A DNA stretch of 64,000 nt. Source: Escherichia coli (GTDB taxonomy: Bacteria > Pseudomonadota > Gammaproteobacteria > Enterobacterales > Enterobacteriaceae). Position numbers: made by a program. Every line of letters begins with the position of its first letter. Position 1 is the first letter of the stretch. This document shows positions 2,051 to 5,000 of the stretch, piece after piece. Location of the stretch: assembly GCF_051903065.1 (NCBI RefSeq), contig NZ_CP178438.1; one strand, 5' to 3'.

Positions 2051-5000
2051 TCATAAAGCATTGTTTGTTGGCTACGAGAAGCAAAATAGGACAAACAGGT
2101 GACAGTTATATGTAAGGAATGTGACAGTTTGATGACACCCAAACGAAAGTTATTACTTATTGATATTAAAGGGTAAAAATATCAGCGTTTTTTCATAAAA
2201 GGAGAGGAAATATGAACGGCTGTCATAAAACAGCCGCAAAAGGTTAGTTTACAAATTCAATGGTTAAGGTCGCGGTAGCGTTAAAAACGCCGGGCTGAGG
2301 CCGGGCACCGGTAAAGCTGGCAGGTGCTGCCGAAAAAGTTACCGAACCATTTTTACGACCAAAAATGGTCGTGTTGCCCATGTCTGCGGGTAACTTGCCG
2401 TTGTTGACGCTAACTTCAGCATTCGATTTATTGTAAATTTTGATCCCGACATCAGCATTGTCTGTCGCCACCATCGTATCGTCACTGCTTCGGTTCGTCC
2501 CCGTAAAAGAAGCATCGACTTTCTGCGTACGCTCATCCCCCATCCCCGTACACTCAATACTCACTGTTTTAGTGATTTTTCGTGAAGTAATGGCTTGCCC
2601 GGCGGTAGATGAAAATTCGGACGCAGGAATAGTATCAAAATCAAAATAAATCACCTGTCCTGCATTTATCTGACAAGACTGTGGTGCGGTCAAACTGCCT
2701 GAAATTCGAACTTTTGCAATCGCCTCACCACGGGTCGTGGTGCTGGATATGTTGGCATACAGCAATGCAATATCGGTGATAGGTATTACTACCGTTCCAT
2801 TTATTGAACGTTTAATACGAAATGAAATCTTCGCATCTGCTCCAGTTTTCAGGCTCACGCCAACCGCTGTAGTTTTGTTTCCCTGACAAGTGTGATCTGT
2901 TGTAGTTGCCTGGTTGGAAACATGTTCAAAAGGAACTGCCGTATACCCCGCATTTAGCACAGATATTTTTGTTCCCACATCGACATATTCGTTAAGATAG
3001 TAAAAAGCAAGACCACTTGCGGTGGTGCTATAAACCATACCGGGAGCAGGGTCTGCGGTATAATATATTTCGTGATAAGCGCCATTGCTATGTTTTGAAT
3101 CACAGTTACACAGAACGCTATAATTTTCAGAAGATGTTGCATTAGCAATATCTATTAATGTATTTCCAGGCACATTGTTTGCTGCACTGACCGTTGTCAG
3201 AGGAAAATTAAGGCTTAATGTATGTGTGCCGCCTCTTGTTGCACACGTGCCATCATTTGCCGCATACCCGCACGGCAACCCTAAATGAAAGAGAATTATG
3301 CAAAATATATAATGCCATTTTTTCATGAAATTATTCCTTTTACTAACACAAGATTAGTTAGTAAATTCAATAACCAGCGTGGCTGTAGCGGTAAATCCAT
3401 TATCAGGCGCTGGTTTTGCTCCCGTCAGACTGGCGGGCGCTGAATAAAACGTTACGCTACCATCGGTTTTTCCTAATCGACTAATAGCACCCATATCAGC
3501 GGGTAAGTTGCCCCCATCCACATTCACTGGACGGTCGTTCTTATCAAAAATCTTAATTCCCACATCCGGATTGCTCGTCACGATCATGGTGGCATCGGCA
3601 CTTCTGTTTGCCGCAATCATCGACGCACTCACCACCTCCGTGGACCTTACGTCTTCCATCCCGGTACAGGATACTGTGACTTCGGTTTTAATCTTTCTTT
3701 CTGCAATAATTGAACCCGCCGTTGAGGAGAACTCAGCGCTATTAATTTTTTGAAAATCGACATCGATGCTCTGATTTGGCGTTAACTCACAGTTCTGCGG
3801 GGCCGTTAGTTGTCCGCGAATTGTCACTTTAGAAACGGGGGTCGTTTTGGGAAAATGATCGGACATGCCCGCGTACAACCAGGCGACTTCCGTTGTGGGT
3901 ATTGTCACCGTGCCAGTAATAGAATGCCGAACATAGAAAGATAATTTTGCCGAGCGCCCTGAATCCAGATTTACAGTGCTCCCATTATTACCTGCTCCAC
4001 AGGTATGTTGCGGTGAGATGGATTGGTTGGATAAGTGTTCAAAAGGAATGGCCGCATATCGGTTATTAATAATAAAAATCGTCACGCCGACCGATAAATA
4101 ATCATTCAGAGCATAGTAATTTAACCCATTAAGAGTGCGCTCAAGCACAAGCCCCGGTGCGGCATCCCCCGTGTAGAAGATAGGAAAAAATGCTGTTTGT
4201 TGGCCCGGTCCGCCATGCGTGTCATCACAGTGACAGCGCACCGGGTATGTTCCAGTCGTGTTGCTCAGTGCCTCGAAAATATTGTATCCGGAGTGGTTAT
4301 TCGCCGCTGCCACCGTCAGCGGACCAAATGATAAATTTGACATGTGCGTTGCGCCATCACTATTAAAACAAACGCCATCACCATTAGCGGCGAAACCATA
4401 AGGACAGCAAAGCAGCAGAATCAACCCTGATAATATTTTTTTCATTCATGCTTCCTTTAGCGACAAATCGCATCCATTTGAACCAGGCTGGTATCATCAG
4501 GTTTATGGGTGATGTGATAGGCCGCCTTACATTTTTCATCCGCAGCTTGTCCCCAACTCAATAAAAACTCGCCTTTTTCAGGCATCCCGGAGAGATACAG
4601 TTCGCCGTTATCACCGACAATCCCGGTGACTGTGCCCGTTTCGAGAGAGGCGGTTGCCATCGCGCCAAACATTATTGGTTTACCGTTGACCTGGCGGACG
4701 TTAAATAGCACGCGATAACCGACATGGGTGACAAATTCGGCTTTCACCACCGCACCGCGCGTTGGTACCAGGTTGATGACGGTGTTTTCCAGTTCAATAT
4801 TGGCTTTGGAGAAATAGTCGCTGTTCAATGCCACGCGGTTTTCGTCATACGGGCTAAGCTGCGTTTTTACGGTATAACCACGCCAGTCGGTAGAAATCCC
4901 GGTGGCGTTTTCAATGGACAGGCCTTCTGCGCCCGGCGCTTTGACCAATGCCACCGTTTCGCCCAGTTCCTGCGAGAAGGTCACTCCGTCACTATGCACC

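What the first reader, a model, noticed from the sequence alone, without database searches (positions are those of the whole stretch)
2244..4445. Two tandem adhesin-sized fimbrial genes at the end of the fimbrial operon
Two ~360-aa paralogues with signal peptides and near-identical C-terminal donor-strand motifs (TATLTIEFVN / TATLVIEFTN) follow the usher. Their N-terminal halves are diverged, consistent with alternative tip adhesins of different binding specificity.
Basis: partly seen in the sequence, partly recalled or inferred. Interest (0 to 1): 0.25.

Follow-up and report, generated by a model that had tools for sequence, protein, structure and literature searches.

The report
Two adhesin genes ending lpf2 operon
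The two genes are the already described lpfD and lpfD' tip-adhesin genes at the end of the E. coli lpf2 (Stg-type) long polar fimbria operon; both are intact, but the operon's chaperone gene reads as frameshifted in this strain, so this is an ordinary, known feature.

Summary
Window 3354-4445 (363 aa) and 2244-3326 (360 aa), both on the minus strand, are intact ORFs directly after the usher. They are 47% identical (E 3e-104), each has a signal peptide, and their C-termini are as quoted.

They are the last two genes of the lpf2 operon (lpfA2-B2-C2-D2-D'2) between glmS and pstS. The extra 3' gene in O157:H7/O55:H7 operons is already published (PMC3559732, PMC4636846).

Both proteins match the LpfD adhesin structure 5AFO by sequence and by predicted fold (TM 0.71-0.80). 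Each has a lectin domain plus a pilin domain and no N-terminal extension, so "alternative tip adhesins" is the best reading.

- The C-terminal motif is the pilin F strand, not a donor strand.
- Divergence is spread over both domains (N domain 41% identical, C domain 54%).
- The pair is not a simple local duplicate. Each copy has 81-86% orthologues that are the sole adhesin gene of four-gene operons at the same site in other genera, and the gene trees are incongruent. Two adhesin lineages have been placed in tandem.

In this window the chaperone gene lpfB2 has one extra T (T7, 7597-7603), so assembly is probably off. Interest is low.

The parts
2216..2237 (-). Terminator-like hairpin (GCGGCTGTTTTATGACAGCCGT followed by a T-rich tail), 6 nt after the D' stop. 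It marks the end of the operon.
   Evidence: One search finds a 9-bp stem with 5 GC pairs. A homologous hairpin follows the single adhesin gene in Pseudocitrobacter, Salmonella and Citrobacter operons.
2244..3326 (-). Downstream adhesin gene (lpfD' of lpf2; Sakai ECs_4665), 360 aa. Layout: signal peptide about residues 1-22, lectin-like N domain about 23-200, pilin domain about 205-360.
   Evidence: Pfam Fimbrial 208-358; 5AFO LpfD, E 2e-22 over residues 26-358; pLDDT 84, TM 0.77-0.80 to 5AFO; annotated lpfD in Sakai; orthologues at 65-81% in Pseudocitrobacter, Salmonella and Citrobacter.
3327..3353 (-). 27-nt spacer between D and D', with the ribosome-binding site AAGGA 9 nt before the D' ATG. 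There is no terminator here. The spacer weakly resembles the usher-tail/RBS junction that precedes single adhesin genes elsewhere.
   Evidence: The best local matches are to the L005 and L021 junctions (shuffle p about 0.002 and 0.016, uncorrected for 10 comparisons). This is only a hint.
3354..4445 (-). Upstream adhesin gene (lpfD of lpf2; Sakai ECs_4666), 363 aa. It has the same three-part layout as D' and six invariant cysteines (C26, C71, C73, C149, C219, C260).
   Evidence: pLDDT 81, TM 0.71-0.74 to 5AFO; orthologues at 86% in Salmonella Portland and 68% in [Enterobacter] lignolyticus.
4457..6991 (-). Usher gene lpfC2, 844 aa, intact.
   Evidence: Usher 609 bits, plus PapC_N and PapC_C; 84% identical to the Salmonella Portland usher, sister with 100% bootstrap.
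7013..7700 (-). Chaperone gene lpfB2, frameshifted. It is 688 nt long because the T-run at 7597-7603 has 7 T where relatives have 6. As written, translation stops after 36 codons.
   Evidence: (annotated 'frameshifted'). Removing one T restores a 228-aa protein identical to that of strain YZMc3-1.
7803..8405 (-). Major subunit gene lpfA2, 200 aa, identical to the O157:H7 Sakai protein.
   Evidence: NF011817, 357 bits against a cut-off of 203.

Best explanation
The two genes encode two alternative tip adhesins of the lpf2 (Stg-type) long polar fimbria.

Proposed mechanism: each protein is exported by its signal peptide and folds into an N-terminal lectin-like domain plus a C-terminal incomplete Ig-like pilin domain. 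The chaperone LpfB2 would cap the pilin groove, which is bordered by the conserved C-terminal F strand ATATL-x-IEF-x-N. The usher LpfC2 would take the chaperone-adhesin complex as the first subunit. LpfA2 subunits would then add underneath by donor-strand exchange.

Neither protein has an N-terminal extension, so neither can be inserted within a fibre. Each fibre would therefore carry either D or D' at its tip.

The pair did not arise as a recent local duplicate. D belongs with the A-B-C backbone. D' belongs to a second adhesin lineage that is the sole adhesin of related operons in other genera. It was most likely retained or added at the pstS-proximal end by recombination.

In this window the chaperone gene reads as frameshifted, so neither adhesin is expected to be assembled unless the sequence is wrong there, the tract reverts, or another chaperone substitutes.

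Shown here: gene integrity, domain architecture, homology to LpfD, purifying selection, phylogenetic incongruence and the frameshift. Inferred: export, assembly order, mutually exclusive tip placement, different receptors and the recombination route.
For: Intact ORFs, operon order and terminator.

Identity with the annotated lpf2 locus between pstS and glmS.

Literature:
- PMC3559732 describes the additional 3' subunit gene in O157:H7/O55:H7, 46% identical to the adjacent gene.

Two-domain adhesin fold:
- Sequence matches to 5AFO.
- AlphaFold models with pLDDT 81 and 84.
- Foldseek best hit 5AFO at TM 0.71-0.80, followed by PapG, FimH, CupB6, CsuE and CfaE.
- NCBIfam best matches are StgD, LpfD, FimH and BcfD.

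No N-terminal extension: the first lectin-domain strand starts 4-5 residues after the predicted cleavage site.

Both genes are under purifying selection:
- D versus Salmonella Portland, dN/dS 0.07.
- D' versus Pseudocitrobacter, dN/dS 0.07.
- Within E. coli, versus strain XJ34, 0.13-0.14.

Origin of the pair:
- All 13 non-Escherichia operons examined at glmS-pstS have one terminal adhesin gene. In one of them (L013) the contig starts at the major subunit gene, so only the pstS side is seen.
- Window A, B, C and D group with Salmonella Portland at 100% bootstrap.
- Pseudocitrobacter A, B and C group with the E. coli O113 type at 100%, yet its adhesin groups with window D' at 100%.
- D' is 81% identical to the Pseudocitrobacter adhesin, although the ushers are only 65% identical.
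Against: - No experiment or expression data was available here. Receptor binding, and even assembly of D', are untested.
- D' comes from a lineage whose chaperones and ushers differ, so LpfB2/LpfC2 may not handle it.
- The chaperone is broken in this window and, by a different frameshift, in about 90% of carrier genomes. The system is therefore often non-functional as encoded.
- The N domains are not dramatically more diverged than the pilin domains. The case for different specificity is weak.
- An ancient duplication followed by many independent losses cannot be strictly excluded, because the D and D' clades are sister groups.
- The trees are neighbour-joining only and cover 12 operons.
Confidence: 0.7

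Rival explanations
1. Simple local tandem duplication of lpfD, after which the N-terminal halves diverged. This is the reading the first reader implied.
For: The two genes are adjacent, on the same strand, of the same length and alignable end to end. The D and D' clades are each other's closest relatives among the adhesins sampled. The literature calls D' 'duplicated'. The spacer faintly resembles an usher-tail/RBS junction, as a duplication unit would carry.
Against: The copies are only 47% identical, and synonymous sites are saturated even between each copy and its cross-genus orthologues. Each copy has much closer orthologues (81-86%) that are single genes in other genera. D' nests deep inside a clade of single-copy adhesins with 100% bootstrap, while the rest of the operon nests elsewhere. 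A duplication in Escherichia cannot produce that pattern. An ancient duplication needs many independent losses.
Confidence: 0.15
2. Only one of the two is a working adhesin. The other is a silent passenger left by recombination, translated but not assembled by LpfB2/LpfC2.
For: D' comes from a lineage found with different backbones. In O157:H7 the upstream D has lost seven residues including the invariant Cys26, and some strains also lack ten conserved pilin-domain residues, while D' stays intact. So the two copies do not share the same fate.
Against: Both genes are full length in this window and in the relatives examined. Both show dN/dS of 0.13-0.14 within E. coli, for example 27 synonymous against 12 non-synonymous changes in D' versus XJ34. 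Both have ribosome-binding sites and share one terminator. The adhesin lineage swaps among backbones in nature, which implies cross-compatibility.
Confidence: 0.25
3. One of the two is not a tip adhesin but a minor shaft, adaptor or terminator subunit.
For: Older annotations call the LpfD proteins 'minor fimbrial subunits'. lpf2 has no small adaptor gene such as lpfE or fimF/G.
Against: Both are about 360 aa with a full lectin-like N domain. Both match whole-length tip adhesins. Neither has the 10-20 residue N-terminal extension needed for donor-strand exchange into a preceding subunit. Adaptors and terminators such as FimF, FimG and FimI are single-domain proteins of about 170 aa. FimF matched D' only weakly (21 bits against a cut-off of 200) and only over the pilin domain, and did not match D.
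Confidence: 0.03

Closest known systems
lpf2 / OI-154-type long polar fimbria operon of E. coli O157:H7 and O55:H7 (lpfA2-B2-C2-D2-D'2; Sakai ECs_4665-4670)
   Same: Same locus (pstS-glmS), same gene order and the same five genes. LpfA2 is 100% identical, D' differs by 1 residue, D by 2 residues plus a 7-aa indel, and the usher by 9 residues. The extra 3' gene is described in PMC3559732 and PMC4636846.
   Different: The window has the full-length D (363 aa, with DGVCFNS and Cys26), as in O55:H7 and non-O157 strains. Its lpfB2 is broken at a T-run (T7) rather than at the A-run (A7) lesion of O157:H7/O55:H7. A roughly 28-kb Tn7-like resistance element lies between the operon and glmS.
LpfD of adherent-invasive E. 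coli LF82 (PDB 5AFO; Coppens et al. 2015, cited in PMC5022761)
   Same: Two-domain tip adhesin of the same superfamily. Sequence E-values are 2e-22 and 4e-19. The predicted folds superpose at TM 0.71-0.80 over about 340-350 columns.
   Different: Identity is only 22-23%. LF82 LpfD belongs to the lpf1/Salmonella-type lpfABCDE operon at another locus, which has one adhesin gene plus lpfE.
Stg fimbriae (stgABCD) of Salmonella and the E. coli O113/APEC type at the glmS-pstS site
   Same: Same chromosomal site and the same A-B-C-D plan. The literature states the orthology of lpf2 and stg (PMC3373541, PMC3559732). StgD is the best NCBIfam match for both proteins.
   Different: The scores (240 and 186 bits) are far below the StgD equivalog cut-off of 493. 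Stg and O113 operons have one adhesin gene. The O113-type usher is only 63% identical.
Tandem predicted adhesin genes in the Salmonella ste fimbrial cluster (PMC3373541)
   Same: [quoted passage not shown]
   Different: It is a different fimbrial family and locus. No sequence comparison was done here.

Membership tests
Chaperone-usher two-domain tip adhesins (FimH/PapG/LpfD type) | C-terminal incomplete Ig-like pilin domain | tested here: met
   Pfam Fimbrial matches residues 208-358 and 208-361 at 79 and 62 bits against a cut-off of 25.6. The C domains of the models superpose on pilin subunits FimA and PapE.
Chaperone-usher two-domain tip adhesins (FimH/PapG/LpfD type) | N-terminal receptor-binding (lectin-like) beta-sandwich domain of about 150-200 residues in place of an N-terminal extension | tested here: met
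   The models are all-beta over residues 24-195. Whole-length best hits are 5AFO, PapG, FimH, CupB6, CsuE and CfaE. N-domain hits include the F17G, MrkD, Abp and UcaD lectin domains. The first strand begins 4-5 residues after the predicted cleavage site.
Chaperone-usher two-domain tip adhesins (FimH/PapG/LpfD type) | Sec signal peptide | tested here: inconclusive
   By inspection there is MKK, a hydrophobic core and G-(Y/F)-A|A-N. The pattern is conserved in homologues and is a low-pLDDT helix in the models. No dedicated predictor was available.
Chaperone-usher two-domain tip adhesins (FimH/PapG/LpfD type) | Location at the fibre tip and receptor binding | not testable with these tools
   This needs immuno-EM or binding assays.
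lpf2 (OI-154-type) operon of E. coli | Position between pstS and glmS with the order lpfA2-chaperone-usher-D-D' | tested here: met
   In this window the operon is separated from glmS by a Tn7-like insertion.
lpf2 (OI-154-type) operon of E. coli | Near-identity to the O157:H7 reference genes | tested here: met
   DNA of the two genes is 98.7% identical to O157:H7 strains. Protein differences are listed.
lpf2 (OI-154-type) operon of E. coli | All assembly genes intact, so the operon can function | tested here: not met
   lpfB2 is frameshifted: T7 at 7597-7603 against T6 in relatives. A homopolymer sequencing error cannot be excluded, because only two genomes from one study share it.
StgD equivalog (NCBIfam NF011819) | Score above the curated cut-off of 493 bits | tested here: not met
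   The scores are 240 bits (D') and 186 bits (D). The proteins are related to StgD, not equivalent to it.

The most novel reading that the evidence does not exclude
The adhesin gene at the pstS-proximal end of the glmS-pstS fimbrial operon may behave as an exchangeable cassette across Enterobacteriaceae. The same adhesin lineage sits on unrelated A-B-C backbones. On this reading the Escherichia D-D' tandem is a captured intermediate of such an exchange, with an incoming backbone-plus-adhesin block placed next to a resident adhesin gene. That would give one operon two tip specificities. A secondary idea is that the homopolymer tracts in lpfB2 (T6/T7, A8/A7) act as slippage switches.
Probability: 0.4. 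Interest if true: 0.35.

Novelty: already known. Interest (0 to 1): 0.12.

Why it matters
Lpf fimbriae are colonisation factors of EHEC and other E. coli, and lpf genes are used as typing markers.

The practical message is that the presence of lpfA2/lpfD genes does not mean a working fimbria. The chaperone gene is broken in about 90% of the complete genomes that carry this operon, and by an independent lesion here.

The evolutionary point is of modest interest. The second adhesin is not a fresh duplicate. It is a member of a separate, widely distributed adhesin lineage, which fits modular exchange of adhesin genes between fimbrial backbones.

Nothing here changes current understanding of chaperone-usher assembly.

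Tried and rejected
1. The scan of one genome per species (genome contigs) with a D/D' alignment returned only 5 loci, too few for a systematic census of tandems. I relied instead on exact-protein look-ups.

2. The word-indexed homologue search with D did not return D' or its clade, so a second search with D' was needed.

3. I tried to use the terminator after the last gene to tell the D and D' lineages apart. I dropped this because the hairpins are homologous across both lineages.

4. I tested whether the 27-nt D-D' spacer is a remnant of an usher 3' end. The matches are suggestive but short and are reported only as a hint.

5. I considered phase variation of lpfB2 by homopolymer slippage and judged it unlikely as a fast switch. 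A7 is shared by O55:H7 and nearly all O157:H7 genomes, and only a few genomes deviate: TR01 with A8 and NZRM4165, whose match is one base shorter.

6. Papers by Torres 2004, Farfan & Torres 2012, McWilliams & Torres 2014 and Torres 2009 were not held. The D2/D'2 naming therefore rests on PMC4636846, on PMC3559732 and on my own knowledge.

Full report
**Observation**

One search shows two minus-strand ORFs at exactly the reported coordinates. The upstream one, 3354-4445, encodes 363 aa and is called D here. The downstream one, 2244-3326, encodes 360 aa and is called D'. Their C-termini are TATLVIEFTN and TATLTIEFVN, as quoted.

D begins 11 nt after the stop of an 844-aa usher (4457-6991), which matches Pfam Usher at 609 bits plus PapC_N and PapC_C. 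D and D' align over their full length at 47% identity, E = 3e-104. Each carries the Pfam Fimbrial domain only in its last ~150 residues.

Both start with MKK, a hydrophobic core and G-(Y/F)-A|A-N. I judged the signal peptide by inspection and by the models, because no predictor was available.

**What the locus is**

Further upstream on the same strand lie a PapD-type chaperone gene (7013-7700) and a 200-aa major subunit gene (7803-8405). Downstream lies pstS (992-2032).

The 6.8-kb region is 100% identical to two complete E. coli chromosomes and 99.4-99.8% identical to the other best-matching ones. In those records the major subunit is annotated lpfA2. In O157:H7 Sakai the two genes are ECs_4666 and ECs_4665, both named lpfD. 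So this is the lpf2 operon between glmS and pstS.

The D+D' form is present in 354 of 5,426 complete E. coli genomes, mainly O157:H7 and O55:H7.

The tandem is already in the literature:
- Wurpel et al. [quoted passage not shown] - Yue et al. 2012 (PMC3373541) equate lpf2 with Salmonella stg. They also note hypervariable StgD alleles and tandem adhesin genes in another cluster (ste).

**What the proteins are**

Both match the solved LpfD adhesin of E. coli LF82 (5AFO) by sequence, at E 2e-22 and 4e-19.

AlphaFold models built on a 35-sequence alignment reached pLDDT 81 for D and 84 for D'. For each model the best Foldseek hit is 5AFO, at TM 0.71-0.74 and 0.77-0.80. The next hits are whole-length tip adhesins PapG, FimH, CupB6, CsuE and CfaE, and isolated lectin domains F17G, MrkD, Abp and UcaD.

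NCBIfam ranks StgD, LpfD, FimH and BcfD first, all below the equivalog cut-offs.

In both models the first beta strand of the N domain starts 4-5 residues after the predicted cleavage site, so there is no N-terminal extension. From the established donor-strand-exchange mechanism it follows that each protein can only start a fibre. This step is an inference.

The conserved C-terminus is the pilin domain's own F strand. Calling it a 'donor-strand motif' is a mislabel.

**Are the N-terminal halves specially diverged?**

Only mildly. The N domain is 41% identical and the C domain 54%.

I compared seven D-clade and ten D'-clade sequences. Positions fixed differently in the two clades number 20 in the N domain and 10 in the C domain. 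Positions conserved in both number 50 and 57. The odds ratio is 2.3, p = 0.064.

Six cysteines are invariant across both clades.

**Are both genes alive?**

Yes. dN/dS is 0.07 for D versus Salmonella Portland and 0.07 for D' versus Pseudocitrobacter. Within E. coli, versus strain XJ34, it is 0.14 for D and 0.13 for D'.

Both genes have ribosome-binding sites. There is no terminator between them, and a good hairpin follows D'.

**Origin of the pair**

Orthologues of D are in each case the single last gene of an A-B-C-D operon between glmS and pstS. Examples are Salmonella Portland (86%), [Enterobacter] lignolyticus (68%) and metagenomic Enterobacteriaceae.

The same holds for orthologues of D': Pseudocitrobacter (81%), Salmonella (69-70%) and Citrobacter (65%).

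All 13 non-Escherichia operons inspected have one adhesin gene. For one of them (L013) the contig starts at the major subunit gene, so only the pstS side is seen. The tandem was seen only in E. coli and in Escherichia sp. E1V33.

Neighbour-joining trees with 500 bootstraps show the following:
- Window A, B, C and D are sister to Salmonella Portland (100% each).
- Pseudocitrobacter A, B and C are sister to the E. coli O113/Stg-type operon (100% each).
- The Pseudocitrobacter adhesin is nevertheless sister to window D' (100%).

In line with this, D' is 81% identical to the Pseudocitrobacter adhesin while the ushers are only 65% identical.

The adhesin gene has therefore moved between backbones. 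The window's D' belongs to a different lineage from the rest of its operon. The simplest account is that two adhesin alleles were placed in tandem by recombination in Escherichia. An ancient duplication with many losses is not excluded, because the two clades are sister groups.

The 27-nt spacer faintly resembles the usher-tail/RBS junction found before single adhesin genes. That is only a hint.

**State of the operon here**

The chaperone gene has 7 T at 7597-7603 where relatives have 6, and translation stops after 36 codons. Deleting one T restores a 228-aa protein identical to that of strain YZMc3-1.

Only two genomes, both from one study, share this lesion. It may be a real recent mutation or a homopolymer assembly error.

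Independently, 317 of the 354 carrier genomes differ from the window's in-frame sequence across the A-run at 7335-7342. Every sampled genome but one in that group is one base shorter, and Sakai has A7 against the window's A8, which splits the chaperone gene. This group includes O55:H7 and O157:H7.

In O157:H7, D has also lost DGVCFNS, which includes the invariant Cys26. Some strains further lack APASLTGAKP in the pilin domain. D' stays intact.

So in this window both adhesin genes are in their full-length form, but as written the operon lacks a chaperone.

**Verdict**

This is a correct observation of an already described feature. The 'alternative tip adhesins' reading is reasonable and is now supported by fold evidence.

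The one modestly new element is the evidence that D' is a second adhesin lineage placed in tandem rather than a local duplicate. Interest is low.

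Noticed in passing
window 7597-7603 (within lpfB2, 7013-7700, minus strand): One extra T in a homopolymer (T7 against T6 in relatives) frameshifts the fimbrial chaperone gene after codon 34. Only two genomes from one Ecuadorian study share it, so it is either a recent mutation or a homopolymer assembly error.
   Followed up: yes
window 7335-7342 and L002 (Sakai), L024 (Z885): A second homopolymer in lpfB2 is A8 here but A7 in O157:H7 Sakai. 317 of 354 carrier genomes, including O157:H7 and O55:H7, do not match the window's in-frame version, and nearly all sampled ones are one base shorter, which splits the chaperone gene. O157:H7 strain TR01 has the in-frame A8. NZRM4165 has a match one base shorter again.
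   Followed up: partly
L002 3381-4451 (Sakai ECs_4666) and L024 6611-7651 (Z885), equivalent to window 3354-4445: In O157:H7 the upstream adhesin lacks seven residues (DGVCFNS), including a cysteine that is invariant in 35 homologues. Some UK bovine strains also lack ten conserved pilin-domain residues (APASLTGAKP). The window has the full-length form.
   Followed up: partly
window about 9400-37350: A roughly 28-kb Tn7-like element (tnsABCDE) lies at the attTn7 site downstream of glmS, between glmS and lpfA2. It carries an integron integrase with dfrA1 and two S1-peptidase cassettes, blaTEM-1, two IS26 copies, sul3, qacL, aadA1, estX, an IS3-family element and a Tn3 remnant.
   Followed up: no
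L023 5501-6583 (strain XJ34), equivalent to window 2244-3326: The XJ34 allele of D' differs from the window at 39 sites. All 12 amino-acid changes and 21 of 27 synonymous changes fall in the N-terminal domain, which suggests a recombination tract confined to the lectin domain.
   Followed up: no
window 7759-7774: A palindromic hairpin (AATGGCGAGCGCCATT) lies between lpfA2 and lpfB2. It may be an intra-operon attenuator that favours major-subunit transcript excess.
   Followed up: no
window about 39400-64000: The rest of the window is conserved E. coli core: glmU, the atp operon, rsmG, mnmG, mioC (the oriC region lies between mnmG and mioC), asnC, asnA, viaA, ravA and kup.
   Followed up: no
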